DNA of 64,000 bases from positions 190,340,001-190,404,000 of the forward strand of contig OZ024743.1 in assembly GCA_964016885.1 (NCBI GenBank). The letters run 5' to 3'. Position 1 is the stretch's first letter, and each line of letters starts with the position of its first letter. The position numbers were made by a program, and so were the translations under genes. Positions 5,007-62,315 of the stretch are shown one piece after another. Source of the DNA: Eledone cirrhosa (lineage: Eukaryota). A model generated the notes under the pieces. The model did no database searches and was not told the origin of the DNA. It saw only the letters and a program-made list of their open reading frames with translations.

Positions 5007-5246
5007 TGCGTATCTGATAATATTATGAGTAGGTATGAGCTTGCGGGTAGATGTCTATATGTGCGTGTAAATATATGTACACACACACGTACTTATACAT
5101 ACACACAGACACACACACACACACAAACATATATATATAGGTAGAAATAAAATCCTGCGTATCTGATAATATTATGAGTAGGTATGAGCTTGCGGGTAGA
5201 TGTCTATATGTGCGTGTAAATATATGTACACACACACGTACTTATA

Positions 5247-5310
<64 letters not shown>

Positions 5311-5339
5311 TATATAATGTAGGTAGAAATAAAATCCTG
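5007..5339. repeat. Tandem duplication of ~150-180 bp containing (CA)n
   Basis: gcgtatctgataatattatgagtagg..gtagaaataaaatcctg occurs twice and ends at the 5' truncation point of the PLE ORF. Confidence 0.8.
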
Positions 5340-7352
5340 GACGAATTCTGTGAACACATCACAAACTCCCCTTACCAACACTTGCACAGACAAAAACACA
5401 AGCCAAACCTCAACAAGAAAGAATGGGAAGAATTAAATAGATTAAAAACCGACAGAACCATTACAATTAAAGAGGCTGATAAAGGGAGTACAGTAGTCCT
5501 AATGGAGACAGAATTCTATATCAACTTAGCACTCTCCACTTTGGAAAACGAAACATACTACGAAAAGGCTGAACACTACAATCAACAGAAAATTATGAGA
5601 AACCTAAAAACTCTAATCAACCAATACAAAGAAGGACTCACTAACAAGGAATTCAGCTTCATCACAGACTTCACAAGTAAATCCAGCCTTTTCGACGGTA
5701 TCCCTAAAGTACATAAAAGCGAATCAATCAGTAAGGCATGCAAGGAAGCCACAGACATAGTCATCAATATCCCCTGACCCAATGATCTCAAATTAAGACC
5801 TATAATAGCAGGCCCCGCTTGCGAAACGCACCGTCTTAGCAACTTCATTGATACCCTTCTCAAACCCTTCCTCAAGCACATCAAAAGCTATATAAGGGAC
5901 GACCTAGATATGCTCAATCACCTCCCTAATATGCCACTTTCTGAACAAACCCTACTAGTGACGTTCGATGTAGTCAACCTATACTCCAACATCCCCCACA
6001 ACCTAGGAATAGAAGCTATCCAATTCTGGCTGGATAATTTCCACAATGAACTCCCACAACGCATCAAAAAAGAATTCGTGATAGAGGGACTCAAATTTAT
6101 CTTGGAGAACAATTACTTCGTTTTCAATAACAAACACTACAGGCAGAAATCTGGGACCGCTATGGGAACGAAAACAGCCCCTACTTATGCCAACCTAGTC
6201 ATGGGATACCTGGAAATCACCCTCTACACTAAAGTCCTAAACAAATTTGGAAACACCCTCCACTTACACATTGAAAGGAACTGGAAGCGATATCTAGATG
6301 ACTGCTTCATCCTTTGGCACGAAAACATCGAAAAACTTAAAGAATTTCACGCCCTTATAAATGGTCTCAACACAAATATTAACTTCACGATGGAATACAG
6401 CCATCAACAACTCCCCTTCCTCGACATCCTCATTAAGATCCATAACAAAAAAATAGAAACAGACATATACTACAAGCCCACAGACACCAAGCAATATCTC
6501 CCCTTCAACTCTTGCCACCCTAGACACGTTAAAATTAATATTCCCTACAACTTAGCCAAGAGAATCTGTACTATAGTCTCCAATAAAAACATCTGCTACT
6601 TACGGCTACAAGAACTAAAGGACACACTCATAGGCAGGGACTACCCTGCATCACTAATTGACAATGGAATCCAACGTGCCCTAAAACTCAGTACCCAGGA
6701 CCTTAGACACCCTAAAGTAAATCAACCAAAACTAAAAGCTCTTCCATACATCTCCACACACAACCCCCTCAACAATGAGGCCTTTGACACCATCCTCCAG
6801 AACATACCTGTATTGAAAAAGGACCATAGAATGAACCAAATTCTACGAACACACGATATCATAAAGAGCAAAAGACAATCCAAGTCAATGAAAAACATCT
6901 TAACACATGCCAAAGTACTGCCAACCACAACAACGAAACCCACAGTAAAAAAATGCGATAGACCCAACTGTGGCATTTGCATCAACCTAATAGATGGTTC
7001 GGAATTCTATTTCAAAGATGGACAACGTTTTATAGTAAAACACAATTTCACATGTGCATCTGAAAATCTAATATATTTATTAACTTGTTCAGGTTGTCGA
7101 GAACAATACATAGGCCAGACCAAAAACAGCCTCCGCCAACGCATGACTGTCCATAGATCCCAAATTAAAATACGGGAATACAGGAAAATACCACTGAGTG
7201 AACACATTGATACCTGTGCCGCCCAAAATCATCCCAACTTCAGAATCTTTCCCCTCTACAAATTTAAAGATAATGCCACCCACACCCAGCGCATCAGCAA
7301 GGAATCTTACTTCATTAACAAATACGGACCCCGTCTAAACACCTCTCCCTAA
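5337..7352 (+). pseudogene. Penelope-like element ORF (RT plus C-terminal GIY-YIG, Neptune-like), 5'-truncated, with one in-frame TGA
   Basis: ORFs 5382-5777 and 5910-7352 are in the same frame, split by TGA at 5775. Motifs: ADKG, LRPI, FDVVNLY, GTAMG, RYLDDC, PFLD, linker C-x4-C-x2-C (CDRPNCGIC), NLIY..C..C..YIGQT, R..HR, E.YFI..Y...LN. Confidence 0.92.
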
Positions 7353-7972
7353 GACGAACCCACAACATACACACGTCAACATACATACCTACATCGGCAC
7401 ACATCTCTACCCACATATAAACACAATGACACACGTAAACACACATGCTCTATGGTGCAATACAAAAAAATATATGTGCATATATATGTATGTATATATG
7501 TATATATATATATATATATGTAGTGAATATATGTATCTGTATATATATATAGTGAATATCATTTCACACCTTTTATTGTTAAGATTTTTGATGTTCTATT
7601 AAGAGAACCGATTTTACTGAAAAAATCGAATAATGTACACCATTTTACCAGGGGGAAAACATACTGGTCCACCCACACACACACACATACACACACACAC
7701 ATATACACAAACACATACACACGCGTACATCAACATACAAAGAGACTTATACACACACACACACACGCACTTCTCCGTATAAGACAAAAGCTGAAAAATA
7801 TCTTTTGACATGCTAAAATACCCCCATTGCTTTCAGACACATTCTTACTGACCATCGAATTACTCTGCTATACACACACACACAAACACACACACACACT
7901 TATCTTAATAGCCATTTGACACACATCGCTGCTGGCCATTGTCGCAGCATCGAACACCTTACTACTACTACT

Positions 7973-8019
<47 letters not shown>

Positions 8020-8403
8020 TACACACACACACACACATATTTGTTGTGAAAGAGTCATTTCTCAATCTTGGCGCAAAACCAATTTTTTATCCACATGACC
8101 TCTACCGACCAATCAAAATTGTTTTGACCACAAGCATTTTTGCAACACAAAAATAACGCTGGAGCCACTTTTTTAACATAAAAACAGGTAGAATTCCCAA
8201 AACTAATCAGATCAGAGCAAACAGCACGGATACACTATCTCAAAATTATTTTTGAAAAGCATTTAGAAATGCGCAACCGGTAAAAACTTAAAAACTTAAA
8301 ACCACAACTGAATACTAACCCATACAATCACTAATACTCTTTTATTCCTAATTAAACCATTTTTCAACTGTGAACAATTTGTCAGCATTTTCTATTCCGT
8401 TTA

Positions 8404-8460
<57 letters not shown>

Positions 8461-13239: not shown

Positions 13240-16200
13240 AAATGTCCCCCCCCATCCCACCAGACACCCCCTCCCCACCAAACATCTCCGTTCCCACCCC
13301 GCCAGAGACCACGACCCCCACCAAACAACCCCTCCAACACCCCCATGGAAATTGTGCAGCCTGGTGCCCAGGAGACGAAGAGGTGAGTGATTTCTTTTCC
13401 TCTTCTTTTAAATTTTCAGCAATAACATGGCCAATATAAGAGTTGGATGTGTGAATGTACGCGGCCTGTGGATGCTCTGGAAACAGCGAATACACTTAAA
13501 CGACCTCAGGTCGCACAGTATGGATGTAGTAGCCATTTGCGAGTCCAGGATCCACAGCGAGCGACAACTGGCCCCATCTTCGACGACTTTGAGATCTACG
13601 CATCTCTGTGTCAGCCGGGAGGTGGGGGTGGGGTTGCCGTTTTGCTGTGGAAACACCTGCACCTCGTAACACAGACGGTACATCTGGACCCTGAGGGTCG
13701 ACTGGTGGTCCTAGACGTTGACGGTAGTGAGGGTGGAGCCTTCAGGCTGGTGGCCACATATGCCGGTCAACCGCGGCCAGACTTCTTCAAACGTCTAGAG
13801 ACTTTTCTGGGAACGTCGCGCTCCCTGCTTTTAGTGGGGGATTGGAATGGAATCATAGATACACGTTGGGACTATGTGGGAGCATGTCCCGATAGAGGAG
13901 GTGTAACAGTCTCAAACAGTTAATCGGCCGATTTGACCAGGCCGATAGATATCGACTAGATATCGACCAGATTTTCCGACTGTGCCACTGTGGACGTGGA
14001 CTAATAATAGCGGAACATCTAGATCGTACCTAGATAGGGTTCTAGTTAGAAAGAAGGATAGGGTCATGTTAACCTGTCCACAAATGTTTATGGTTGCCTA
14101 TTCAGATCACAAATTAGTGACCTGCTTAGTCAACCTTGACAAAACCCATAGACAGGGACCCGGCTACTGGAAGCTGAACTTGTTACCGACATGCAAAGCC
14201 TACAGTAGACGGATTAGCACTTTAGTTAAGCAGCACTTGACGGGGTCCATTGTCAACAATAGATGGTGGTACTCTCTCAAGAGGGCAGTTAGATTAGACT
14301 CGATAGGTTTTAGTAAAGAATTAGTGGTAGATAGAAATAAGACCGAAAAGGAACTGGTAGATAAAGTAGAAGAGGTACTTAGGAGTGGCAACGTAGCCAG
14401 CGTGCTAGCGACGAGAACGGCCTTGGACCAGTTCTTCGACGCAAAGCATGAAGACTGCGTTGTCAGAAGTAAAATACGTGCTCTGGAAAACGAGGGAGCC
14501 AAACTGTTAGCTGGCCCGAGTTACGGAGGCAAAGCAGATCTGCGCGCCCTTTCAGCGGCACTTTGCTCAACTATTCGGGTAAGCCGGCGCGCCGGGAGGG
14601 GCTATGGATTACGGTCCATACCTCGACGGCCTACCGCGACTCTCGGAGAGCGAGGCGAAGGTCTGCGAAAGGCCGATTTCGGCCGCTGAGATAGGGGACG
14701 CGCTGAGCCAATGCGACAAACGCAAATCTCCAGGTCTCGACGGTCTACCATACGAATTTTACGTAGCAATGCCGGACTTGTTCTCCGGTCTCCTGGAAGC
14801 GGTCTACTGCAACTGGCAGCAGAAGGGGAGAATTCCCAGTTCTGTGACCAAGGGCGTAATCACGTTAGTCAGGAAGGACGAGAATAAGGGGGATGACATA
14901 TGCAACTTCTGCTAAACATAGAGTTACAGATTTTGGCCAAGGTGTTGGCAAAGAGGCTGGCGCTTGTCGTCGAAAACCTGGTGGGAGAAGCTCAGACATG
15001 CGCAATCCCGACCAGGTCCATACACGACAACCTACACCTCCTGCGATACATCATGGAGAGGGTAGGGTGTAAACACAGCTTCGGTGGGGCCCTGATCAAC
15101 TTGGATCAGTCTAAGGCTTTCGATAGGGTTGATCATCGTTACCTGGATGCGGTGATCGAGGCGGCAGTCTTCGGTCCCGTGTTCAGGGGCTGGATTGCTG
15201 CAATGCACAACAGCAACATCTGCTCAAGGGTCAAGGTGAACGGCTACCTCCCGGAGCCTTTCCATATCACACGATCCATCCGACAGGGATGCCCTCTCTC
15301 CTCCCTTCTGTACGTACTGACTCTCGAGCTACTACTGCGGAAGTTTGAGCTATTGCAGAGCATCCCTTTGGAACCGGGACTGTGAAAAGCGGCGTCGGCC
15401 TACACCGACGACGTGACAGTAATGGTGTCGAGCAACTCGCAAATCGGGGAGGTCAGCACCTTACTGGAGGAATACGAAAGGTTCACAGGAGCGAAGCTGA
15501 ACCGGGAAAATCCGTCGGTTTGCAACTCGGAACGTGGAGAGGCAAACCGATGCCTTCCGATGGCGTCGTCGGACGCTGGACGGTAGGACCGGTAAAGCTG
15601 CTCTGGGTCTGGTTTGATCCGGACCTCCAGGTGGAGAAGATCTGGAACGAAGTTACGGCCAAGGTGTTTGCGCTCACCCAGAAGTGGGCCGAGTGCAAAC
15701 TACCCTTGAAAAGTCGAGCGGAGGTGGCGAACACTTTTATAGCGTCCGTCATCTATTACCGCTTGCCCGTCGTGCCTAGTCCAGCCAAAACGCTCACCAA
15801 AATGGAGCGTTCGCTCTTCCAATTCCTTTGGAAGAAACGGGCTCCTTTGGTGAGAAGATCCATCTGCTGCCAACATCCTTCAAACCGAGGGCTGGGTATG
15901 CCGTGGCTGGCGATGCGCAAACACGCGCTCAGGCTGCGGCACCACCACGTATTCCTCACCGGACAACCGGTGTTGGCCCCGTTCGTGAGGAGAGCCTTCC
16001 CACGACTCGTCTCGCTGACCGAGCTGCAGTCCTGGATCAAGCAAAGACCGAGAAAATGGGCGACTGGCACATCGAATGTGCTCAGGCGCTGACAGTCCTC
16101 TGGCAAACGGACCCGGCAATCAGTGGAGACTCCACTTCGACATTCTATAGAGGGTTGGTCCGCAGCTAGTGCGACGACGCGTTCGGAGAAACTCTAGGTG

Positions 16201-17017
16201 TAGAGGAGGACGAACTGGCCAGTCTATTCGGTGTGACCTTCCGCCCGGGACCAATGGACAACTTCCAAAAGTCCCTGGCCTGGCAGTACTACCAAGGAGC
16301 TCTACCAGTTCGAGACAACCTATACAGACAGAGGCGCCCGGGCAGGGACCCTTCGAAAAAGATTAGTCCGAGATGCGTGCGCGACGAGGAAACCGTCGCA
16401 CACGCATTTGTACACTTCCCGGGCGTTACCGACCTGTGGGCTATGTACAACGACTATTGTCGCGGGTGGGACCAATCCAGTTGACCACCGAGTCTATTGT
16501 CATGATCAAACCGCCACCCTCCTTCAAAAACGAGGGAGAGGCGGTTTTCCTATATGTTATGGCTATGGTGAAAGAGGTTATATGGTGGACGATGTTAAAA
16601 GGTCTGAGGTCAGACACCTTTCTCTCCGGCGAGCAACTGATTCAGTTTTTACAAATATCATTTTGGAAGAAGAATCAGGATGGAGAGAGAGGTGCTGTAC
16701 CCCAGCAAATGTTATAAATGGTGGGTGAATGTGGCAAAGATGGCCAGAGTGGTTGGGCCTTCTCTCTATATAAGCCTGTAGGTTGAGGAAAAAGAGGAAG
16801 AGAGGAAGGGAGTACTCACTGTTGGTGCTCCTGGAGTTGAGGGTTGTACATTTTTTCGGGGTGTGTACAACCCTTGTGTGACGCCTACTCCTATTGGGGA
16901 TTTCAATTGTTATTTGTTATTTTATTAATAGTTTTATTTTCATATACCTGTATGTAAACTCCCCATTTGTATTTGTCCCCTTCTTCTGTGCCCCTGTGGC
17001 TAATAAAGAAATTTATC
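13240..17017 (+). mobile_element. Tx1/L1-clade LINE, ORF2 (APE-RT-Cys domain) broken by frameshifts; 5' boundary uncertain
   Basis: MANIRVGCVNVRGL (13427), GDWN, SYLDRVL, SDH, GPGYWKLN, KSPGLDGLPYEFY, LDQSKAFDRV, RQGCPLS, AYTDDV, C-terminal PRC..EETVAHAF; 3' aataaag end. Confidence 0.9.
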
Positions 17018-17360: not shown

Positions 17361-17426
17361 TTTATTTATCTGATGAGGACGTACTGAGGAAACAGCACAG
17401 TACCTCTGAAATATATATAATAAAAT
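17361..17426 (+). ncRNA. Type I hammerhead ribozyme
   Basis: UUUAU-CUGAUGA-GGAC-GUACUG..CAGUAC-CUCU-GAAA-UAUAU-AUA/AUAAA. Confidence 0.7.
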
Positions 17427-17713
17427 ATATTTGATCACATTAATGTCTATATTTATTAATATTTTGAATATATATATATATATATATATAAACAATTAAG
17501 TTAAAGTGTACATCTACATATGTATACGGAAGTATTAGTATGCATATAAATACACATATGTATACATATGTACATGTACCGAGCTTTTCACTAGACACTT
17601 TGCAGTGAGTGTCCAGCTAGTCTGTATGTAAACACACAGACGAACCGGGTTTTAAAGTCATACGGGTTTTCAAGGAAACACACTTCCTCTATTCTCCAGA
17701 GAGCCAGACAGGA

Positions 17714-17756
17714 ATATTGGACTAGTTTCGATGTTATTACATCTCATCAGCAATAT
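17714..17756 (-). ncRNA. Minimal type I hammerhead ribozyme (canonical)
   Basis: AUAUUG-CUGAUGA-GAUGU(AAUA)ACAUC-GAAA-CUA-GUC/CAAUAU. Confidence 0.95.
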
Positions 17757-18183
17757 ATACCTATCTTCTGGCTTCTCCGGAGAATTGTAAAAGCACATAT
17801 CGTTATATGCTTTTTCTATGAAAATCAGTAGTGGGCAGACTAATTTGCATAGAACGTGAGTCATTGTACGCGCCGGTTCAGCGGAAACGATAAAAACAAA
17901 TAACGAAACGAAATTAAATTTCGTTTCGCTTCTAACTCACTTTTGTATGACTGACGCTTAAACAATTAAGTTAAAGTGTACATCTACATATGTATACGGA
18001 AGTATTAGTATGCATATACATACACATATGTATACATATGTACATGTACCGAACTTTTCACTAGACACTTTGCAGTGAGTGTCCAGCTAGTCTGTATGTA
18101 AACACACAGACGAACCGGGTTTTAAAGTCATACGGGTTTTCAAGGAAACACACTTCCTCTATTCACCAGAGAGCCAGACAGGA

Positions 18184-18226
18184 ATATTGGACTAGTTTCG
18201 ATGTTATTACATCTCATCAGCAATAT
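18184..18226 (-). ncRNA. Minimal type I hammerhead ribozyme (second tandem copy)
   Basis: Identical to 17714-17756. Confidence 0.95.
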
Positions 18227-18496
18227 ATACCTATCTTCTGGCTTCTCCGGTTGAAAACCCGTATGACTTTAAAACCCGGTTCGTCTGTGTGTTTACATAC
18301 AGACTAGCTGGACACTCACTGCAAAGTGTCTAGTGAAAAGCTCGGTACATGTACATATGTATACATATGTGTATTTATATGCATACTAATACTTCCGTAT
18401 ACATATGTAGATGTACACTTTAACTTAATTGTTTAAGCGTCCGTCATACAACAGTGAGTTAGAAGCGAAACGAAATTTAATTTCGTTTCGTTATTT

Positions 18497-18547
<51 letters not shown>

Positions 18548-43353: not shown

Positions 43354-44117
43354 TAAAAACAAATAACGAAACGAAATTAAATTTCGTTTCGTTTGTAACT
43401 CACTTTTGTATGTCTGACGCTTAAACAATTAAGTTAAAGATGTACATCCATATATGTATACTGAAATACTAGTATGTATATGAATACACACACGTATACA
43501 TATGTAGGTGTACCAAGTTTTTTCACTGGTCACTTTACTGTGAGTGGCCAGCTATTCTGTATGTAAACACACAGACAAACCGGTTTTTAGAGTCATACTG
43601 GTTTTTGAGGAAACACCTCTCCTCTATTCTCCAGAAAGCCAGACAAGGAATATTGAACTAGTTTCGTTGTTGTTACAACTCATCAGCAATATTTACCTAT
43701 CTTCCGGCCTCTCTAGAGAATCGTAAAAGCACATATCGTTATATGCTTTTTCTATGAAAATTAGTAGTGGGCAGACTAATTTGCATAGAGTGTGAGTAAG
43801 TACCGGTTCAACGGAGACGATAAAAACAAATAACGAAACGAAATTAAATTTCGTTTCGTTTGTAACTCACTTTTGTATGACTGACGCTTAAACAATTAAG
43901 TTAAAGATGTACATCCATATATGTATACTGAAATACTAGTATGTATATGAATACACACACGTATACATATGTAGGTGTACCAAGTTTTTTCACTGGTCAC
44001 TTTACTGTGAGTGGCCAGCTATTCTGTATGTAAACACACAGACAAACCGGTTTTTAGAGTCATACTGGTTTTTGAGGAAACACCTCTCCTCTATTCTCCA
44101 GAAAGCCAGACAAGGAA
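43351..44117 (-). mobile_element. Second locus of the 470-bp retrozyme-like family (467-bp unit, ~1.6 copies)
   Basis: ataaaaacaaataacg at 43353 and 43820; clearly homologous to, but diverged from, 17491-18250. Confidence 0.9.
43650..43692 (-). ncRNA. Minimal type I hammerhead ribozyme
   Basis: AUAUUG-CUGAUGA-GUUGU(AACA)ACAAC-GAAA-CUA-GUU/CAAUAU. Confidence 0.93.
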
Positions 44118-45525
44118 CCTCAGAGACGCAAGGAGACGCTCAGATTTGTTTTCTATCTGCCTGCATAAATTCCATAGAACTTTTCACAAAGTATACAGTT
44201 AATATTCAATTCTTTATCAATTTAGAATCTTTTCTCAAAGGCACATATACATACACCTCTTTAAAATATACCCATCTACCTTACTTTAAAGGGCATTATA
44301 CACTCTATAATACTCGTTTACTCATTACCCTCATTCTATCTTCTCGTAAAACAATAACATTTGTTTTTGACATTTTGAATATTCATCCGCAATCATTATT
44401 ATTTTTTCTCTCTATCATAAATCTTTTTAATCTCAATTTCATCCTTAATTTATTATTATATTTTTTTTAATATATACTCATATATTCTTTAAAATATACC
44501 CATCTACCTTACTTTAAAGGGCATTATACACTCTATAATACTCGTTTACTCATTACCCTCATTCTATCTTCTCGTAAAACAATAACATTTGTTTTTGACA
44601 TTTTGAGTATTCATCCGCAATCATTATTATTTTTTCTCTCTATCATAAATCTTTTTAATCTCAATTTCATCCTTAATTTATTCTTATTTTTTTCTCCCCA
44701 TCAACGAACTCATTATTAATACATATGAATTCAATATACAAACTTTAACTTCACATTATTTTTCTCAAATCCTTCTACACATAAACCTTAACATTTTTCT
44801 CTTTGCTAATTTTGAAATTCCCACAATACATACATTTCTTCTTTTGACGTTAGAATATTCACCCACAATTATTATTTTTTTCTCTCTATCTTCATACATA
44901 ATTTCCCTTCGTTAATTTTCAAATTCCTTTAATTTATACATTATCTTCCAACGGTTCCCAACCTCTCTATATTAAAACATTATATCTTTTTCTCAGTTAT
45001 AAAAACTATCTCTTTCTCTCTTTCTCTCTATCACCCATCTCTCCCTTTCCACCTTCACTCTCATCTCCTCCCCTTTTTTTCATCCTTCCCCCCCCCTCCC
45101 TAAATAAAATATTTTTTCCTCGCACATATCCTCCCTTCGTTAATTTTCAAAATTTTTAATTTATACAGTATCTTCCAACGGTTTTCAACCCCTCTATATA
45201 TAATATATATCTCCTCTCAGTTATAAAAACTATCTCTTTCTCTCTATCACCCATCTCTCCCTCTCATCTCCTTCCCTTTTCATCCTTTTCTCCCCCCCCC
45301 CCTCTCTAAATAAAATATTTTTCCCAATATCACACATCAATCTAAAACCACTTTTCATATGTTGATTTAAAACTGCACTATCAACAAGTGTTTTTTAGCC
45401 TTCATATCATGTTCTCCTGTTTTATCTGATGAAAACACAAATATTATTGTTTGATGATGTTTGTTTTTGAAATGCGCATAATAAAATATATGGAACTCCT
45501 TTAACCATCTTTTGATCTTATATTT
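44118..45525 (+). mobile_element. Pyrimidine-rich non-coding element with two internal ~229-bp tandem duplications and a 3' HHR
   Basis: ctttaaaatatacccatc at 44259 and 44488; cccttcgttaattttcaaa at about 44905 and 45133. The 3' part recurs inverted at 62711-62846. Confidence 0.65.
45418..45488 (+). ncRNA. Type I hammerhead ribozyme
   Basis: UGUUUUAU-CUGAUGA-AAACA-CAAAUAUUAUU..GAUGAUGUUUG-UUUUU-GAAA-UGCGC-AUA/AUAAAAUA; palindrome AUGCGCAU. Confidence 0.88.
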
Positions 45526-46982: not shown

Positions 46983-47552
46983 AAACATTTCAGGTTATAA
47001 ATAATGTAGTGATAATATATCGTTACGTTAGAGATGAACAGCGTACGTGTAGGTTTGCTCAACGAGTATAAATTATATTCCGGAGAAAATGTAGAAAAGA
47101 TGAATATAAAATGAAAGTGCTTTTTTTAAAAAAAAGGAATCTATTAGGTATTGACATATGTTTCTGTAACAGACGGAATACCTATGTATCGCTGCTTGCG
47201 TAATCATATAATGTCAGCAAGTATTCGACAGCAAATGTACAATCAGTTATAACTTCTTCAGAGATTTTGGATAAATTGGAAAAAATCAGAAAAATTGAAG
47301 TATTTATATTAGTTGTAATAGAGGAAGAAGAGAGGGGATAGTATATGAAAGATGGTAATTCAATTTACCGCTAAACAAGTATATAAAGGGTTTCTAATGA
47401 GAATACAATGAGTAAATGGTTTATTTGATCTAAATAAGAATTTTTGGGAGTGCCTATTTTAATCTATACTTGACCAATTGAACAATGGATGGTAATTTGG
47501 GTCTTACTTGTTCCTATATATATATAGAGATATATAGATATATATGTGTGTG

Positions 47553-47601
<49 letters not shown>

Positions 47602-47704
47602 TTATTAAAATATATTAGTCTTCAAATTTATTATTAATACTATATATATGTATATATATATATATATATGTGTGTGTATATATATATATATGTGTGTATC
47701 TATA

Positions 47705-47741
<37 letters not shown>

Positions 47742-47742
47742 C

Positions 47743-47779
<37 letters not shown>

Positions 47780-47836
47780 ATATATATATATATGTGTGTA
47801 TATATATATATATATATGATTATATATATGTGTGCG

Positions 47837-47871
<35 letters not shown>

Positions 47872-47889
47872 ATATATACATATATATAT

Positions 47890-47962
<73 letters not shown>

Positions 47963-47963
<1 letters not shown>

Positions 47964-48162
47964 TGGAATAAATGCTCTGAAATAGCGATATATATGTGAA
48001 TATAGACATAGAATATTCGAAAATACTCTGTATGTTTATAATAAACATTTTGAAGACCTAATCGCTATAGAATAGAATACGTCACGTATTACAATTAGAT
48101 TCTCGATAAAAGCAAGGGAAGTAATCTACGCGTTTCATTCTCGTTAGAAATCATCAGGACCA
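47963..48162 (-). mobile_element. Inverted partial copy of the 310-bp unit, including an HHR at 48121-48162
   Basis: Reverse complement of array sequence 48493-48693. Confidence 0.92.
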
Positions 48163-48358
48163 TTGAAGTATTTATATTAGTTGTAATAGAGGAAGAAGAG
48201 AGGGGATAGTATATGAAAGATGGTAATTCAATTTACCGCTAAACAAGTATATAAAGGGTTTCTAATGAGAATACAATGAGTAAATGGTTTATTTGATCTA
48301 AATAAGAATTTTTGGGAGTGCCTATTTTAATCTATACTTGACCAATTGAACAATGGAT

Positions 48359-51300
48359 GCTATTTCAGAGCATTTATTCCAATTTCTAATTTCTGCCGGA
48401 CCGGCAACCGCTCTTTCAAACCAGTTCCTGTACACAGCTAAGTATTCTATAAGTCTCTAGCTGTGTCATTCTCGATAAAAGCACTGGATATGTGGTCCTG
48501 ATGATTTCTAACGAGAATGAAACGCGTAGATTACTTCCCTTGCTTTTATCGAGAATCTAATTGTAATACGTGACGTATTCTATTCTATAGCGATTAGGTC
48601 TTCAAAATGTTTATTATAAACATACAGAGTATTTTCGAATATTCTATGTCTATATTCACATATATATCGCTATTTCAGAGCATTTATTCCAATTTCTAAT
48701 TTCTGCCGGACCGGCAACCGCTCTTTCAAACCAGTTCCTGTACACAGCTAAGTATTCTATAAGTCTCTAGCTGTGTCATTCTCGATAAAAGCACTGGATA
48801 TGTGGTCCTGATGATTTCTAACGAGAATGAAACGCGTAGATTACTTCCCTTGCTTTTATCGAGAATCTAATTGTAATACGTGACGTATTCTATTCTATAG
48901 CGATTAGGTCTTCAAAATGTTTATTATAAACATACAGAGTATTTTCGAATATTCTATGTCTATATTCACATATATATCGCTATTTCAGAGCATTTATTCC
49001 AATTTCTAATTTCTGCCGGACCGGCAACCGCTCTTTCAAACCAGTTCCTGTACACAGCTAAGTATTCTATAAGTCTCTAGCTGTGTCATTCTCGATAAAA
49101 GCACTGGATATGTGGTCCTGATGATTTCTAACGAGAATGAAACGCGTAGATTACTTCCCTTGCTTTTATCGAGAATCTAATTGTAATACGTGACGTATTC
49201 TATTCTATAGCGATTAGGTCTTCAAAATGTTTATTATAAACATACAGAGTATTTTCGAATATTCTATGTCTATATTCACATATATATCGCTATTTCAGAG
49301 CATTTATTCCAATTTCTAATTTCTGCCGGACCGGCAACCGCTCTTTCAAACCAGTTGCTGTACACAGCTAAGTATTCTATAAGTCTCTAGCTGTGTCATT
49401 CTCGATAAAAGCACTGGATATGTGGTCCTGATGATTTCTAACGAGAATGAAACGCGTAGATTACTTCCCTTGCTTTTATCGAGAATCTAATTGTAATACG
49501 TGACGTATTCTATTCTATAGCGATTAGGTCTTCAAAATGTTTATTATAAACATACAGAGTATTTTCGAATATTCTATGTCTATATTCACATATATATCGC
49601 TATTTCAGAGCATTTATTCCAATTTCTAATTTCTGCCGGACCGGCAACCGCTCTTTCAAACCAGTTCCTGTACACAGCTAAGTATTCTATAAGTCTCTAG
49701 CTGTGTCATTCTCGATAAAAGCACTGGATATGTGGTCCTGATGATTTCTAACGAGAATGAAACGCGTAGATTACTTCCCTTGCTTTTATCGAGAATCTAA
49801 TTGTAATACGTGACGTATTCTATTCTATAGCGATTAGGTCTTCAAAATGTTTATTATAAACATACAGAGTATTTTCGAATATTCTATGTCTATATTCACA
49901 TATATATCGCTATTTCAGAGCATTTATTCCAATTTCTAATTTCTGCCGGACCGGCAACCGCTCTTTCAAACCAGTTCCTGTACACAGCTAAGTATTCTAT
50001 AAGTCTCTAGCTGTGTCATTCTCGATAAAAGCACTGGATATGTGGTCCTGATGATTTCTAACGAGAATGAAACGCGTAGATTACTTCCCTTGCTTTTATC
50101 GAGAATCTAATTGTAATACGTGACGTATTCTATTCTATAGCGATTAGGTCTTCAAAATGTTTATTATAAACATACAGAGTATTTTCGAATATTCTATGTC
50201 TATATTCACATATATATCGCTATTTCAGAGCATTTATTCCAATTTCTAATTTCTGCCGGACCGGCAACCGCTCTTTCAAACCAGTTCCTGTACACAGCTA
50301 AGTATTCTATAAGTCTCTAGCTGTGTCATTCTCGATAAAAGCACTGGATATGTGGTCCTGATGATTTCTAACGAGAATGAAACGCGTAGATTACTTCCCT
50401 TGCTTTTATCGAGAATCTAATTGTAATACGTGACGTATTCTATTCTATAGCGATTAGGTCTTCAAAATGTTTATTATAAACATACAGAGTATTTTCGAAT
50501 ATTCTATGTCTATATTCACATATATATCGCTATTTCAGAGCATTTATTCCAATTTCTAATTTCTGCCGGACCGGCAACCGCTCTTTCAAACCAGTTCCTG
50601 TACACAGCTAAGTATTCTATAAGTCTCTAGCTGTGTCATTCTCGATAAAAGCACTGGATATGTGGTCCTGATGATTTCTAACGAGAATGAAACGCGTAGA
50701 TTACTTCCCTTGCTTTTATCAAGAATCTAATTGTAATACGTGACGTATTCTATTCTATAGCGATTAGGTCTTCAAAATGTTTATTATAAACATACAGAGT
50801 ATTTTCGAATATTCTATGTCTATATTCACATATATATCGCTATTTCAGAGCATTTATTCCAATTTCTAATTTCTGCCGGACCGGCAACCGCTCTTTCAAA
50901 CCAGTTCCTGTACACAGCTAAGTATTCTATAAGTCTCTAGCTGTGTCATTCTCGATAAAAGCACTGGATATGTGGTCCTGATGATTTCTAACGAGAATGA
51001 AACGCGTAGATTACTTCCCTTGCTTTTATCGAGAATCTAATTGTAATACGTGACGTATTCTATTCTATAGCGATTAGGTCTTCAAAATGTTTATTATAAA
51101 CATACAGAGTATTTTCGAATATTCTATGTCTATATTCACATATATATCGCTATTTCAGAGCATTTATTCCAATTTCTAATTTCTGCCGGACCGGCAACCG
51201 CTCTTTCAAACCAGTTCCTGTACACAGCTAAGTATTCTATAAGTCTCTAGCTGTGTCATTCTCGATAAAAGCACTGGATTTGTGGTCCTGATGATTTCTA

Positions 51301-52068
51301 ACGAGAATGAAACGCGTAGATTACTTCCCTTGCTTTTATCGAGAATCTAATTGTAATACGTGACGTATTCTATTCTATAGCGATTAGGTCTTCAAAATGT
51401 TTATTATAAACATACAGAGTATTTTCGAATATTCTATGTCTATATTCACATATATATCGCTATTTCAGAGCATTTATTCCAATTTCTAATTTCTGCCGGA
51501 CCGGCAACCGCTCTTTCAAACCAGTTCCTGTACACAGCTAAGTATTCTATAAGTCTCTAGCTGTGTCATTCTCGATAAAAGCACTGGATATGTGGTCCTG
51601 ATGATTTCTAACGAGAATGAAACGCGTAGATTACTTCCCTTGCTTTTATCGAGAATCTAATTGTAATACGTGACGTATTCTATTCTATAGCGATTAGGTC
51701 TTCAAAATGTTTATTATAAACATACAGAGTATTTTCGAATATTCTATGTCTATATTCACATATATATCGCTATTTCAGAGCATTTATTCCAATTTCTAAT
51801 TTCTGCCGGACCGGCAACCGCTCTTTCAAACCAGTTCCTGTACACAGCTAAGTATTCTATAAGTCTCTAGCTGTGTCATTCTCGATAAAAGCACTGGATA
51901 TGTGGTCCTGATGATTTCTAACGAGAATGAAACGCGTAGATTACTTCCCTTGCTTTTATCGAGAATCTAATTGTAATACGTGACGTATTCTATTCTATAG
52001 CGATTAGGTCTTCAAAATGTTTATTATAAACATACAGAGTATTTTCGAATATTCTATGTCTATATTCA
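48359..52068 (+). mobile_element. Non-LTR retrozyme-like tandem array: 12 x 310 bp, one HHR per unit
   Basis: tatttcagag recurs at 48361+310k (k=0..11). Only three substitutions seen (49357, 50721, 51280). No ORF. Confidence 0.93.
48492..48534 (+). ncRNA. Minimal type I HHR (unit 1; repeats every 310 bp to 51902-51944)
   Basis: GUGGUC-CUGAUGA-U-UUCU(AACG)AGAA-U-GAAA-CGC-GUA/GAUUAC. Predicted cleavage after 48528. Stem I is extended by a 16-bp perfect helix 48468-48483 / 48541-48556. Confidence 0.93.
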
Positions 52069-52185
52069 TATATATATATGTATATATATATATATGTGTA
52101 TATATATATATATATGTGTATATATATATATTTATATGTGTGTATATATATATATATTATATGTGTATAAATATATATATGTGTG

Positions 52186-52246
<61 letters not shown>

Positions 52247-52939
52247 CTGTATATATATATATATATTCTGGCATGACACCCATAATTTTGATTTAGATTA
52301 AATTCATTTTGATTTATCTTAATTTTGGATATAGATATATAAATACGGCTCCTTAATTGTAGAGATAACTCTGTTGAAAGGACTTGACTGCTGTTTCTAG
52401 TTGTAGATGACCCTAGTCACGCCACTGGGACGAAGCTGGTATGATGTTTGTATTTTTAGTAGATATAGCACGTGTTACTGGCCAGTTGCTGATTTGAACT
52501 TAATGCGTAAACACAGATCGCTGGACTTCTTCCTTGTTGAGAATCGGCCTCCGTCATTTACCAATCGATTAATTGGTGAAATATATTTCTTTAATGGAAT
52601 ATATACAAGGAAGATTAATCATATTATAAGGTATCTATTTTTAAAGTTCTAGTTAACTTTATTTAGTTACCTACTTAGCTATGTGTGCTTACACACTTGT
52701 AAAAATTATCCCCTGTGATTGTTTCATATGTTTATTTATATGTTAATCAATTTCTAGTTGTTATATATATATATATATATACGTATATATGTGTATGTGT
52801 GTATATGTATGTATGTATATATATATATATATGTGTGTATGTATGTGTGTGTGTGTGCGTTTATGTATGTACCTGTACGTGTATGTGTGTGTATATATAT
52901 ATATATATGTGTATATGTGTATGTGCATGTATGTTTATG

Positions 52940-54537: not shown

Positions 54538-54588
54538 GGCTTTCTGATGATTTCCTCCGAATGAAACAGTTCTAGTCCTGTAGAAGCC
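54538..54588 (+). ncRNA. Type I hammerhead ribozyme
   Basis: GGCUUU-CUGAUGA-U-UUC(CUCC)GAA-U-GAAA-CAG(UUCUAGUC)CU-GUA/GAAGCC. Confidence 0.9.
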
Positions 54589-58381: not shown

Positions 58382-61300
58382 GATAGCAACTAACAGTGCT
58401 GCGATCGAATGTGGCTTTTTAGCCCAGCCAATGATCTAAAATGTCTTGCACAGAGTCGGCAACCAAAACATTTACTGGGAATAGTCGGCTGTGGTTGGAG
58501 TTCGTGTACTTTTGCATGTCGCTTGAGTCCTCCTGCTGATTTACATTCTCTACCACATGTTTGGCAAGCATGATGAGTAACATCTCCAACAGCAGCCTGG
58601 TAGTCAACCACTGGTCTTACTTTATGACTGCGAAGATGACTTTCGAGTCCAGCTTTGCTTAGGCAGAGTCTCGCACAGACGCTGCATGTCAGAAACATAG
58701 GAGGACCCTCGCCGTCTGGAAGTGCAACAGCAATACCCTTCCTCACGTCCCGCTTTACTTTCTCGTGTGCGATTCGAGATGCCTCAAAGGCAACTTTTCC
58801 CTCATATACAGTCTTTCTCCATTTATTACGATCAGCAGCAATATTTTCCCATGTATCAGCAGAGATGTTAGCGTCTTTCAGAGAGGCCTTCAAGGAATCC
58901 TTATACCTCTTTTTTGGTTTATGTGGCGGTCGTTTTCCTTTAACCAACTCTCCATAGAAGAGTTGTTTTGGTATTCTAGAATCCTTCATCCTGGCAAGGT
59001 GACCACTCCAACGGAGTCGCTGCTTAAGCACAAGAGCTTCTATACTGTCACACATAGAGCTTTCCAAAATCTCGACATCACTGATGTGGTCCCTCCAGTG
59101 AACGCCATGTATCCGTCTGAGACACATCTGATGGAAACGCTCCAATTGCTTAAGGTGGCGTCGATATGTGACCCAGGTCTCGCAGGCATAAAGAAGACAA
59201 GAGAGTACACATGCCCTGTACACCTTTACCTTTGTCCTCCTGCATATGTCTCGCCGACCCCAGAGTCGCCTTTCTAGCTTTCCGAAAGCATCACTTGCTT
59301 TCCTAATCCTAAGTGAGATTTCACTGTCAAGGTTGCCGTATCGATTGACAGTGCTTCCCAGGTAGACAAACTGATCAACCACTCCAAGTCGTTTGCCATA
59401 CACATAGATGTTTGGTTCAGTGTACTGCCTACCAGGTGCAGGTTGGTACATGACGACGGTTTTCTTGAGACTGACAGTCAAACCCAGGGCAGTGCAAGCG
59501 TCAGAAAATACATTCAAAATGTGCTGCATATCACTCTCTGTGTGCGCTACAAGATCGCAATCATCTGCATACAAGAGGTCTCTTATGACTGATGTAAATA
59601 CTTTTGTCTTCGCAGCAAAGCGCCTGATGTTAAATATGCTGCCTGAGGTTCGATATCGGATGTAAACACCATGCTCGCAATTCCTGAATGCAATACAGAA
59701 AACCATTGCAAAGTATATGGCAAACAGGGTCGGTGCTGGAATATCCCCCTGTTTCACTCCATTTTTTACTGAGATAGGCTCCGACATGTTACCTCCGACA
59801 TTAACCCAAGCCTTCATGTCGTCATGGAAAGACCTAACTAAAGCAAGGAACTTATCAGGGCAACCAAGTTTCTGGAGAACCTTCCATAATGCATCTCTGT
59901 TGACAGTATCGAAAGCCTTTGTCAGATCGACAAAAACCTGATACAGATCCAAGCCCTGTTCAATGCACTTCTCCTGGAGCTGTCTAGCTGAGAAGATCAT
60001 ATCAGTAGTGCCGCGTCCAACACGAAAACCAGATTGGCTTTCAGGAAGGACACAATCTGCAATGTGTGTCAGCAGACGGTCCAGAAGCACCCTACATAAA
60101 ACTTTCCCCACGACAGAAAGCAATGATATACCTCTGTAGTTCCCACAATCATTCCTGTTACCCTTTCCCTTGTACAAGACCACCATTACTGCATCTCTCC
60201 AGTCCTCAGGCACGGATTCATTAGCCCATATCCTTCCAAACAGAGAGTGAAGATGTTGCAGGAGTCTCTCACCACCATATTGTAGGAGCTCAGCATGTAT
60301 GCCATCCATACCTGGAGATCGTCCACTGTTCAGCTTCGAAATAGCCACTGCAACCTCCACAAGTGTCGGAGGTTCTGCGAGAGCTACTTTCACAGGACTT
60401 TCCGGAATGAGATTGAGGAAATCTTCACTGACGACAGACGGCTGATTCAAAAGATCATCAAAGTGCTCTCGCCACCTTCGTAGAATTCCCTGTGAGTCAC
60501 GAAGAAGTTCTTTGCCATCCTTGCTGCGAATCGGTGTCACCAGAGAAGAAGACGGTCCATAAACCTCACGCAAGAGACTGTACAACAGCTTTGTGTTATT
60601 GCAATCAGACGCAGTTTGTATCTCACCAGCCTTCTCACTCCACCACTGATCCTTCATCTGAGAAAGACTCCGCCTAACACGTGATTTTACATCCCTGAGC
60701 TCCTCATGCAACGTATTCCTCTCCTGTGGTTTTGCCGTCGAGTAGCGTGACAGAGCGCGCCTCTTATCAGCCAACAAGTCATCTATATGCACATCTTTCT
60801 CATTAAACCAGTCCTGATGTTTTCTCTGCACCAATCCCAGAACACGTCTGCCTACATCATAAACCGACTTTTTAAGGGTCGGCCAATCCTCACCAAGATC
60901 TGCAGCCTGCATCTCTTCTTCCAATGTCCTCTTCACATTTTTATCCTTAAGACGAGCAGCATTCAATCTTTTGGGCAGGGTAACACCAGGAGCCCGGATT
61001 TTACGTTTGGTGATTAGATTCACTTTTGCGCGTACCAGGCGGTGGTCCGTCCAGCACTCAGCTCCACGAAGAACACGAACACACTGCACATCCTGTCTGT
61101 CACGCATCCTGACTAGGACGTAGTCCAAAAGATGCCATTCCTTAGATGCAGGATGCATCCATGTGGTCTTGAATTTGTTCTTTTGTTGGAACATGGTGTT
61201 GGTAACACACAGATCCAGCTCCTCACACATCTGCAGCAAGAGCATACCATTGCTGTTACACTTTCCCACCCCATGCCTTCCGATTACATTCCATGTGTTA

Positions 61301-61974
61301 AAATCCCTACCCACTCTAGCATTAAAGTCACCAAGCACGATGACTTTGTCTGCCTGAGGGATATTTCTTAAAACACCTTTCAAGGCATGGTAAAAGGACA
61401 GTTTTTCTTCATCGACAGAATTCATAGTTGGAGCATACACACTCACCAGGGTAGCATATCTTCCCTTGTCCAGCGGAACTCTCATGGACATAAGACGCTC
61501 ACTAATCCCCACTGGGAATTCTTCTAATTTATTCACCAGTACAGTCTTAACAGCAAATCCTACCCCAGCCTCTCTTCTGGTTCCTTCATCTCTTCCTTTC
61601 CAGAAGAATGTATATTCTCCACAAAATTCCGTAAGATGACCATCTCCAGCTAACCTCGTCTCAGACAAAGCCACGATGTCAAGATCGTAACGTCGAAGCT
61701 CCTTCGCAACAAGAGCGGTCCTTCGTTCAGGACGCTCCAAAGAATCCCTGTCAAGCAGCGTCCGTACGTTCCAGCAGCCAAGACTAAATGCCCTGTTTGG
61801 CTCTATTACAATGGCACGATGACGGGCGGGCCCAGGTTGTGATAACTTGGGGCCCCTGCCCTTATTGCCAATGATCTTTTTTGTTCCAGAACCCAAATTG
61901 GCAACTATCTCGTTTACATTGTTCTGGAACATCATTGAATTGGAAAAAAAAAAAAAAAAAAAAAAGTAATAATA

Positions 61975-62005
<31 letters not shown>

Positions 62006-62315
62006 TGATACTACACTATTAATAATTATTAATGCACTCGTGCAATGCCTGTGCGTGACGAATATTTTTAAAGTGAGGAAAGAATGTGCACTGAACCAAT
62101 CCCACTCTCTGAGCGACAGTAGCTATAACCCGAAAAGAAGAAAAGATCAACATCATCGGTAACTACTGAGCCGCAGGTTTTATATCGGAGTTAACCCAGT
62201 TTCCTGAGATGCCTTCTCCTAGAAGAATACACTGACATGGGCTAGGGGTTCTTCACTCCCAGTGGTTTAACTGCGCGATCGGGCATCCAGCCCGATTATT
62301 TCTATGTCCCCGCGC
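57898..62315 (-). mobile_element. Apparently full-length RTE-clade LINE
   Basis: 5'UTR with CTAGGAGAAGG motif (62212-62223), single long ORF, microsatellite-filled 3'UTR and a terminal stem-loop at 57898-57936. Confidence 0.85.
58390..61935 (-). CDS. RTE LINE polyprotein: APE endonuclease, reverse transcriptase, three C2H2 zinc fingers (1181 aa)
   Basis: WNVRTL, ALSETR, YAPT, GDFNARVG, TDH; GRSPGMDG, NYRGISLL, FVDLTKAFD, GVKQG, LYADD, YLGS; C-x2-C-x12-H-x3/4-H three times. No stops. Confidence 0.96.
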   Translation of the reverse strand: MMFQNNVNEIVANLGSGTKKIIGNKGRGPKLSQPGPARHRAIVIEPNRAFSLGCWNVRTLLDRDSLERPERRTALVAKELRRYDLDIVALSETRLAGDGHLTEFCGEYTFFWKGRDEGTRREAGVGFAVKTVLVNKLEEFPVGISERLMSMRVPLDKGRYATLVSVYAPTMNSVDEEKLSFYHALKGVLRNIPQADKVIVLGDFNARVGRDFNTWNVIGRHGVGKCNSNGMLLLQMCEELDLCVTNTMFQQKNKFKTTWMHPASKEWHLLDYVLVRMRDRQDVQCVRVLRGAECWTDHRLVRAKVNLITKRKIRAPGVTLPKRLNAARLKDKNVKRTLEEEMQAADLGEDWPTLKKSVYDVGRRVLGLVQRKHQDWFNEKDVHIDDLLADKRRALSRYSTAKPQERNTLHEELRDVKSRVRRSLSQMKDQWWSEKAGEIQTASDCNNTKLLYSLLREVYGPSSSLVTPIRSKDGKELLRDSQGILRRWREHFDDLLNQPSVVSEDFLNLIPESPVKVALAEPPTLVEVAVAISKLNSGRSPGMDGIHAELLQYGGERLLQHLHSLFGRIWANESVPEDWRDAVMVVLYKGKGNRNDCGNYRGISLLSVVGKVLCRVLLDRLLTHIADCVLPESQSGFRVGRGTTDMIFSARQLQEKCIEQGLDLYQVFVDLTKAFDTVNRDALWKVLQKLGCPDKFLALVRSFHDDMKAWVNVGGNMSEPISVKNGVKQGDIPAPTLFAIYFAMVFCIAFRNCEHGVYIRYRTSGSIFNIRRFAAKTKVFTSVIRDLLYADDCDLVAHTESDMQHILNVFSDACTALGLTVSLKKTVVMYQPAPGRQYTEPNIYVYGKRLGVVDQFVYLGSTVNRYGNLDSEISLRIRKASDAFGKLERRLWGRRDICRRTKVKVYRACVLSCLLYACETWVTYRRHLKQLERFHQMCLRRIHGVHWRDHISDVEILESSMCDSIEALVLKQRLRWSGHLARMKDSRIPKQLFYGELVKGKRPPHKPKKRYKDSLKASLKDANISADTWENIAADRNKWRKTVYEGKVAFEASRIAHEKVKRDVRKGIAVALPDGEGPPMFLTCSVCARLCLSKAGLESHLRSHKVRPVVDYQAAVGDVTHHACQTCGRECKSAGGLKRHAKVHELQPQPTIPSKCFGCRLCARHFRSLAGLKSHIRSQHC

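What the first reader, a model, noticed from the sequence alone, without database searches (positions are those of the whole stretch)
48359..52068. 12 x 310-bp near-perfect array with one hammerhead per unit: candidate recently active retrozyme
Seen: 310-bp period and only three substitutions noticed in 3.7 kb. Each unit has an intact core (CUGAUGA..GAAA..GUA), a 16-bp helix extending stem I, and further hairpins (tgccgg-a-ccggca; acacagcta..tagctgtgt). No ORF. Established: transcription through tandem HHR units gives monomers that can circularise in retrozymes. Inference: a 310-nt circular RNA is produced, and the array may be a rolling-circle reverse-transcription product rather than a classical satellite.
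Basis: partly seen in the sequence, partly recalled or inferred. Interest (0 to 1): 0.88.

Follow-up and report, generated by a model that had tools for sequence, protein, structure and literature searches.

The report
Two-armed hammerhead retrozyme insertion
This 12-copy repeat is one arm of a young mobile element found at about a thousand sites in the genome, nearly always as two back-to-back arms of matching units, likely written by a Penelope-type reverse transcriptase running round a small, predicted self-cleaving RNA circle.

Summary
The array is real: 11.97 x 310 bp, three single substitutions, and a type I hammerhead core in each unit. An exact end pattern has 1,041 hits genome-wide. 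Of the first 100 such sites, 93 are two head-to-head arms, mostly multi-unit. In 127 of 127 two-armed loci with both ends seen, one arm stops at unit position ~300 and the other 35 nt further on. This is the Penelope-like-element (PLE) 'tail', and active PLEs in this genome end the same way. Both arms share one haplotype (63 of 65). Inner junctions are not enriched at the ribozyme cut. Array-wide variants lean A>G on the RNA strand (post hoc), while single-unit variants are symmetric. Best reading: a non-autonomous PLE-driven retrozyme, primed from both target strands, with arms likely made at insertion by rolling-circle reverse transcription of one 310-nt circle. Not shown: RNA, cleavage (stem II closes U.U, stem III is dimer-type) and the exact partner PLE. 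A few loci fit multimer templates or later duplication.

The parts
47295..47490 (+). Flanking source of the filler (itself part of another repeat)
   Evidence: 100% identical to 48163-48358; other genomic copies in run X1 differ at fixed sites such as 48217, 48224, 48237
47515..47961 (.). Left (TA)n target microsatellite
   Evidence: TRF; TA runs on both flanks in 74 of 75 loci
47962..48162 (-). Arm B: inverted 5'-truncated arm, 201 bp (unit 135-310 + 1-25), ending at the long 'tail' end (unit 25); holds a hammerhead core lacking most of stem I 5'
   Evidence: 100% match to the unit
48163..48358 (+). 196-bp templated filler joining the two arms head-to-head, 1-nt microhomology at each side
48359..52068 (+). 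Arm A: 11.97 x 310-bp concatemer ending at the short end (unit 300) in (TA)n
48468..48556 (+). Type I hammerhead of unit 1 with distal 16-bp helix: stem I 48492-48497/48529-48534, core 48498-48504, U.U 48505/48518, stem II 48506-48517, palindrome 48522-48527, predicted cut after 48528 (repeats every 310 bp)
   Evidence: motif scan and folds; no Rfam hit
48658..48693 (+). Inferred reverse-transcription initiation module (unit 300-310 + 1-25): AU repeat (end A), small hairpin, end B 35 nt downstream; repeats in every unit
   Evidence: fixed outer ends in 127 of 127 loci; shared with sister families
52069..52266 (.). Right (TA)n target microsatellite
   Evidence: TRF

Best explanation
This locus is one insertion of a young, non-coding hammerhead retrozyme family whose copies are two head-to-head arms set in (TA)n; it is likely mobilised in trans by a Penelope-like element, whose reverse transcriptase would copy a single predicted 310-nt RNA circle round and round from both cut target strands. 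Steps: (1) tandem units are transcribed and cut by dimer-type hammerheads, and monomers are ligated into circles (inferred from known retrozymes; no RNA seen). (2) A PLE GIY-YIG endonuclease nicks both strands of (TA)n (target shown, enzyme inferred). (3) Both 3'-OH ends prime on the hammerhead-sense RNA at two fixed sites 35 nt apart, one by pairing with the RNA's AU repeat and one with 0-2 nt of homology (ends shown, chemistry inferred from PMC11167929). (4) Each RT makes a variable number of turns: 0.65 and 12 here, median 3-4, often over 10 (lengths shown, circle inferred). (5) The two cDNA ends join by microhomology or through a templated filler, here 196 nt of left flank (shown).
For: Architecture: 93 of the first 100 end-B sites on C1 are two-armed, 4 one-armed, 3 uninformative. 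So are 19 of 22 end-A-anchored loci and 18 of 18 BLAST-picked loci. Both ends are visible in 127 of 128 distinct two-armed loci, and all 127 have one A and one B end. Autonomous RT+GIY-YIG families with intact 784-aa and 775-aa frames are young here and show one short and one tailed end in 3 of 3 head-to-head insertions examined. The 775-aa family carries a similar U.U/palindrome hammerhead about 125 nt before its short end and aligns collinearly with unit 112-309 (score 64 vs shuffles 33.7+-5.7). One template per insertion: same haplotype in both arms in 63 of 65 loci, against 0.08 for two random loci; 27 haplotypes among 66 loci; 3.3 differences per unit between loci vs 0.24 within. Born long: 90 single-unit substitutions vs 15 shared-variant rows in 8 of 82 loci; no relation of length to mutation load (rho -0.16, p 0.27, n 53). 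Not a linear cleaved monomer: 6 of 152 inner ends lie within 5 nt of the cut vs 5.4 expected. Mostly not a heterogeneous linear multimer: 50 singletons at an index covered by both arms are unshared. RNA imprint: array-wide variants are 13 A>G vs 4 T>C on the RNA strand, singletons 13 vs 22 (Fisher p 0.017; 12:5 and p 0.038 after re-polarising).
Against: The hammerhead lacks G10.1-C11.1, has no Rfam hit, and the dimer conformation is predicted 5.7 kcal/mol above the minimum fold. Only 1 of 9 predicted Xenopus retrozyme dimers cleaved in vitro (10.64898/2026.07.22.740005). In PMC11167929 cleavage was not needed for insertion and uncut RNA was the main substrate. L078 (outer two units of both arms carry another haplotype) and L060 (one variant at the same index in both arms) fit a multimeric template. 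L064 (about 45 units, 27-unit higher-order repeat), L041, L042 and L242 show repeated variants that fit later duplication or conversion. L020 and L024 switch haplotype inside one arm. Variants private in my sample proved to be genome-wide sublineages, so the match of 11 of 66 to a 12% expectation is only suggestive. The A>G test was post hoc, small, and could reflect tolerance of G.U pairs in stems. The exact partner PLE was not found: neither family shares the tail sequence.
Confidence: 0.68

Rival explanations
1. Same PLE twin priming, but the template is an uncut linear (or multimeric) transcript of an existing array, so no circle is needed and the hammerhead is weak or incidental.
For: Index-matched variants in both arms at L060 and L078; weak dimer-type, U.U hammerhead; unprocessed RNA is the main substrate for the anole PLE (PMC11167929); no junction enrichment at the cut is also expected here.
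Against: 50 singletons in index ranges covered by both arms are unshared, and the 5 singleton changes seen in two or more loci sit on different haplotypes. New variants are array-wide where they occur: 258T fills 3 same-background arrays and is single in one other. This needs a one-unit bottleneck. The array-wide A>G skew would need every unit edited at the same site.
Confidence: 0.2
2. Insertions are born as ordinary short PLE-type partial tandems and grow later by unequal crossover or slippage (minisatellite route, as proposed in 10.64898/2026.07.22.740005).
For: Higher-order duplication in the longest array (L064/L142), 7-unit spacing in L042, block haplotypes in L020 and L024.
Against: Singletons outnumber shared variants 90 to 15 rows. 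Both arms have 2 or more units in 49 of 75 loci. Length is unrelated to mutation load. A more diverged sister family has a second unit in only 3 of 30 loci vs 73 of 82 here. A very fast burst right after insertion is not excluded.
Confidence: 0.09
3. The inverted two-arm structure or the copy number is a long-read fold-back or assembly artefact.
For: Giant inverted repeats are error-prone in assemblies (PMC8557442 passage); 2 of 82 loci end at N gaps; copy number at this locus was not checked on raw long reads.
Against: The arms end at two different fixed sites, differ in length and have unique flanks. Contigs of run X1 hold minus-to-plus joints at 10 listed positions (X1 may be the assembly's own sample).
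Confidence: 0.03

Closest known systems
Animal non-LTR retrozymes (PMC7229834; 10.64898/2026.07.22.740005)
   Same: 150-450 bp tandem units, one type I hammerhead each, no ORF, dimer-type stem III as in axolotl; circle-to-tandem-cDNA by a PLE RT was proposed there.
   Different: The main text of PMC7229834 has no occurrence of 'inverted', 'head-to-head' or 'rolling', and the preprint parts read describe no insertion ends and favour local expansion. Here each insertion shows two arms, fixed priming sites and single-template variants. RNA and cleavage were shown there, not here.
EN+ Penelope-like elements, C-terminal GIY-YIG type (PMC8557442, PMC3846280, PMC2377424)
   Same: Head-to-head inverted 5'-truncated copy, 30-40 bp tail at one end only, (TA)n target, microhomology joins, hammerhead in the terminal repeat.
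   Different: No ORF; both arms are multi-unit concatemers of 310 bp rather than partial tandems. PMC3846280 explained head-to-head copies by self-priming on an antisense template, whereas here both outer ends behave as target-primed sites on the sense strand.
Poseidon PAc of the green anole in vitro (PMC11167929)
   Same: Both target strands cut and extended; RT starts at two adjacent internal sites that define the tail; AT-rich target.
   Different: Autonomous element, linear templates, no concatemers tested; here one start site does pair with the target through an AU repeat.
MRC1 and other non-autonomous Chlamys PLEs (PMC8557442, PMC9940879 passages)
   Same: [quoted passage not shown]
   Different: Most Chlamys lack hammerheads, target (C)n/(CA)n, and no circle is proposed in the passages read.

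Membership tests
Non-LTR retrozyme | Tandem 150-450 bp units with a type I hammerhead motif in every unit | tested here: met
   12 of 12 units
Non-LTR retrozyme | No protein-coding capacity | tested here: met
   no ORF of 120 aa or more in the array
Non-LTR retrozyme | Dispersed at many loci | tested here: met
   1,041 exact end-junction hits, reversed control 0; near-identical copies on many contigs
Non-LTR retrozyme | Self-cleavage of the transcript | not testable with these tools
   needs in vitro transcription
Non-LTR retrozyme | Expressed as linear and circular monomer RNA | not testable with these tools
   no run on record as RNA was offered
Non-LTR retrozyme | Target-site duplication longer than 4 bp when present | tested here: inconclusive
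   both flanks are (TA)n in 74 of 75 loci, so a duplication cannot be read
Type I hammerhead | Core CUGANGA, GAAA, NUH with stems I and II | tested here: met
   0 of 31 array-wide variants hit the 12 invariant positions (about 1.2 expected, not significant)
Type I hammerhead | G10.1-C11.1 pair closing stem II (highly conserved per PMC4209133) | tested here: not met
   U.U here, A-U in a sublineage; U.U recurs with covarying stems in at least four families of this genome, 28 distinct sequences
Type I hammerhead | Match to an Rfam hammerhead model | tested here: not met
Type I hammerhead, dimer type | Short stem III with palindromic loop | tested here: met
   6-nt palindrome at 48522-48527; a 6-bp inter-unit helix can be enforced
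PLE-mobilised insertion | Inverted 5'-truncated copy joined head-to-head | tested here: met
   93 of 100, 19 of 22, 18 of 18
PLE-mobilised insertion | 30-40 bp tail at one end only | tested here: met
   35 nt; 127 of 127 loci with both ends seen
PLE-mobilised insertion | Terminal homology to an autonomous PLE of the same genome | tested here: inconclusive
   distant collinear match to the 775-aa family; tail sequence not shared; no module-bearing ORF among 60 module loci
Autonomous PLE | RT + GIY-YIG ORF | tested here: not met
   arms consist of units only in the loci mapped
Classical satellite DNA | Few large arrays homogenised by unequal exchange | tested here: not met
   about a thousand short dispersed arrays; variants mostly single-unit or array-wide

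The most novel reading that the evidence does not exclude
Each insertion is a natural rolling-circle read of one RNA circle: a dimeric, telomerase-related PLE reverse transcriptase primes from both cut DNA strands on the same 310-nt circle and writes two concatemers, fixing even A-to-I edits of that molecule into every unit. About a thousand such records would be direct genomic evidence that animal retrozymes spread through circles by PLE enzymes, and would explain PLE head-to-head insertions as twin target priming.
Probability: 0.45. Interest if true: 0.85.

Novelty: new variant of a known kind. Interest (0 to 1): 0.72.

Why it matters
How animal retrozyme arrays arise (reverse transcription of a circle, or satellite-type expansion) and which enzyme moves them are stated as open in the papers read. 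So is the origin of PLE tandem and inverted structures. This family carries the PLE tail and target signature on nearly every copy, plus per-unit variant patterns that separate the models. A 310-nt RNA and two young intact PLE proteins from the same genome make a direct in vitro test possible.

Tried and rejected
Rfam gave no hammerhead hit. Sequencing runs: no RNA holder listed; not used for or against. Laid contigs of X1, X2, X3, X5, X6 are of unrecorded kind. Partner search: the 784-aa PLE has the same two-end layout but no hammerhead motif in its 3' part and an unrelated tail. The 775-aa PLE is the best but distant candidate. Four other PLE 3' ends gave no convincing match (the L095 score comes from an adjacent copy of the unit). 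A GIY-YIG frame near a sister copy (L204) proved to be an unrelated neighbour. A 'founder unit' test found 258T as a single unit in L242, but about one such recurrence is expected by chance and that unit is a truncated junction unit, so it is not counted. CpG enrichment of singletons was not seen (4 of 23 C>T/G>A). An excess of variants around the ligation site (169-174) is too small to call. Inner-end positions are off by up to about 95 nt in roughly 15 of 76 loci where a substitution stopped the walk. L263 was fetched on the wrong side and is counted uninformative. Earlier findings: three look-ups returned nothing. Seven literature searches listed no paper describing two-armed retrozyme concatemers; subscription papers and all supplements (for example the model figure of PMC7229834) were not seen and could bear on novelty.

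Full report
Observation. The array is as described: period 310, 12.0 copies, exact span 48359-52068, three single-unit substitutions and no ORF of 120 aa or more. Each unit has a type I hammerhead core with a predicted cut after 48528+310k. The monomer folds better than 100 of 100 shuffles (z -3.8). The ribozyme is atypical: U.U closes stem II and stem III is minimal with a palindromic loop, the dimer type described in PMC4209133 (passages read). Rfam does not detect it. The same U.U closure, with covarying stems, occurs in at least four hammerhead families among the fetched loci (28 distinct sequences), so it is a recurrent local form rather than decay. Activity is untested. Unit positions below count from window 48669 = 1.

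Left of the array lies an inverted, 100% identical arm of 201 bp (47962-48162), then 196 bp identical to 47295-47490, and the whole sits in (TA)n. The filler belongs to another repeat, but other copies differ at fixed sites, so it was copied from this flank. Both of its joins have 1-nt microhomology.

A family with one architecture. The 3.0-Gb genome holds near-identical copies on many contigs (339 matches from 40 of 185 candidates scored). An exact pattern for one end running into (TA)n has 1,041 hits, reversed control 0. The other end pattern has 1,224 hits, some internal, so it is not a locus count. The window plus 17 BLAST-picked loci were all two-armed (18 of 18). Of the first 100 end-B sites on C1, 93 are two-armed, 4 one-armed and 3 uninformative (two N gaps, one wrong-side fetch). 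Of 22 end-A-anchored loci, 19 are two-armed and 3 one-armed. In 127 of 128 distinct two-armed loci both outer ends are visible, and all 127 have one arm ending at about unit 300 and one at about 25 of the next unit. End A lies in an AU repeat that can pair with the (TA)n primer; end B shares 0-2 nt with it. Median arm lengths are 1,190 and 983 bp, both arms reach 2 units in 49 of 75 loci, and lengths correlate weakly (rho 0.33). Inner joins show 1-16 nt microhomology in 38 of 76, are blunt in 9, and show inserts or walk stops in 29.

PLE link. An inverted 5'-truncated copy, a 30-40 bp tail at one end and (TA)n targeting are PLE traits (PMC8557442 and PMC3846280, passages; PMC2377424, passages). 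In vitro, an anole PLE cuts and extends both strands and starts RT at two adjacent sites that define the tail (PMC11167929, parts 1-2 of 4 read). Two young RT+GIY-YIG families with intact 784-aa and 775-aa frames exist here, both with truncated copies in the window. They show short and tailed ends, one of each in 3 of 3 head-to-head insertions examined. The 775-aa family has a U.U, palindromic hammerhead about 125 nt before its short end and aligns collinearly with unit 112-309 (64 vs 33.7+-5.7 for mononucleotide shuffles, partly driven by the core and AT run; the window copy scores 48). Its tail differs, so the partner is not identified.

What template, and when did the arms grow? In 82 loci (739 unit-equivalents), haplotypes are fixed across units: 27 haplotypes among 66 well-covered loci, 3.3 differences per unit between loci against 0.24 within. 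Both arms agree in 63 of 65 loci, while two random loci agree 8% of the time. So one template, or one source, serves both arms. Variants inside arrays are mostly single-unit (90 substitutions vs 15 shared rows in 8 loci), and length does not track mutation load, which argues that arms are born long. Inner ends are not enriched at the cut (6 of 152 within 5 nt, 5.4 expected), against a linear cleaved monomer. Fifty singletons at indices covered by both arms are unshared, against routine copying of a heterogeneous linear multimer. Rare variants fill whole arrays wherever listed. Across 149 clusters, array-wide variants are 13 A>G to 4 T>C on the RNA strand, whereas singletons are strand-symmetric (13:22, and 22 C>T to 16 G>A). 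Fisher p is 0.017, or 0.038 after re-polarising by hand with a diverged copy; none of 11 sites has a 5' G. This resembles A-to-I editing of a single template (ADAR neighbour preference is recalled, not from a call), but it is post hoc and G.U tolerance in stems could contribute.

Results against. L060 and L078 share variants at the same index in both arms. L020 and L024 switch haplotype in one arm. L064, L041, L042 and L242 repeat variants in non-adjacent units, and L064 has a 27-unit higher-order repeat. Multimer templates, template switches and later duplication therefore occur in a minority. 'Private' variants are genome-wide sublineages. No RNA or cleavage was observed; only 1 of 9 predicted Xenopus dimers cleaved in 10.64898/2026.07.22.740005 (parts 1-3 of 5 read).

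Comparison and verdict. It works like, and on the testable features is, an animal non-LTR retrozyme (PMC7229834; passages and Discussion read), inserted like a PLE. That paper proposes circle-to-tandem-cDNA by a PLE RT without insertion-level evidence in the parts read, and the 2026 preprint favours local expansion. Non-autonomous multicopy PLEs such as MRC1 are known (PMC9977147 and PMC6431247 passages added nothing). Seven searches listed no description of two-armed retrozyme concatemers; supplements were not seen. My odds: PLE-mobilised retrozyme about 0.9; mostly rolling-circle on a monomer circle about 0.68. New variant of a known kind; interest 0.72.

Noticed in passing
window 17489-18504: A second, unrelated hammerhead family with the same layout: 470-bp unit, minus arm 17489-18250 with two hammerhead motifs, plus arm 18251-18504, TA runs at both ends. 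A related motif lies at 43656-43686.
   Followed up: partly
window 5220-8407 (+): 5'-truncated copy of a young PLE family (784-aa intact frames elsewhere, 98-99% protein identity), about 1-kb 3' region, two ends 35 nt apart, no hammerhead motif found.
   Followed up: yes
window 41848-42985 (-): 5'-truncated copy of a second young PLE family (775-aa frames elsewhere) with a U.U hammerhead; best partner candidate.
   Followed up: yes
L206-L235, L035:8393-8486 (oriented), L087, L091, L098: Sister families of about 320 bp share the initiation module but have other, partly degenerate hammerheads; 878 end hits; same two-armed layout in many but short arms (second unit in 3 of 30 vs 73 of 82). Ribozyme quality might set arm length.
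   Followed up: partly
runs X3 and X5 laid on window 48480-48860: Each holds the unit as one closed 340-nt contig (goes back 310) of a single haplotype, depth 13.8 and 365, unlike the hundreds of variant contigs in X1 and X2. The kind of run is not on record, so it is unexplained and not used as evidence.
   Followed up: partly
L042, L089, L242, L072 (unit 169-174): Several single or repeated variants, and fixed one-base insertions at 173, lie beside the predicted ligation site; too few to test.
   Followed up: no
L265:1599-1870: A 272-bp filler between the arms with no source in the 8-kb stretch.
   Followed up: partly
window 58390-62010 (-): Intact 1,206-aa LINE-type frame: endonuclease, RT and C2H2 fingers.
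   Followed up: partly
window 13426-16728, 31644-32639, 29410-30113: Broken non-LTR retrotransposon pieces (RT domain at 14897-15382) and a further PLE-like remnant (label recalled; no Pfam hit).
   Followed up: no
window 17370-17402, 54544-54571, 44258-44693: Further single hammerhead-like motifs and a 228-bp two-copy repeat.
   Followed up: no
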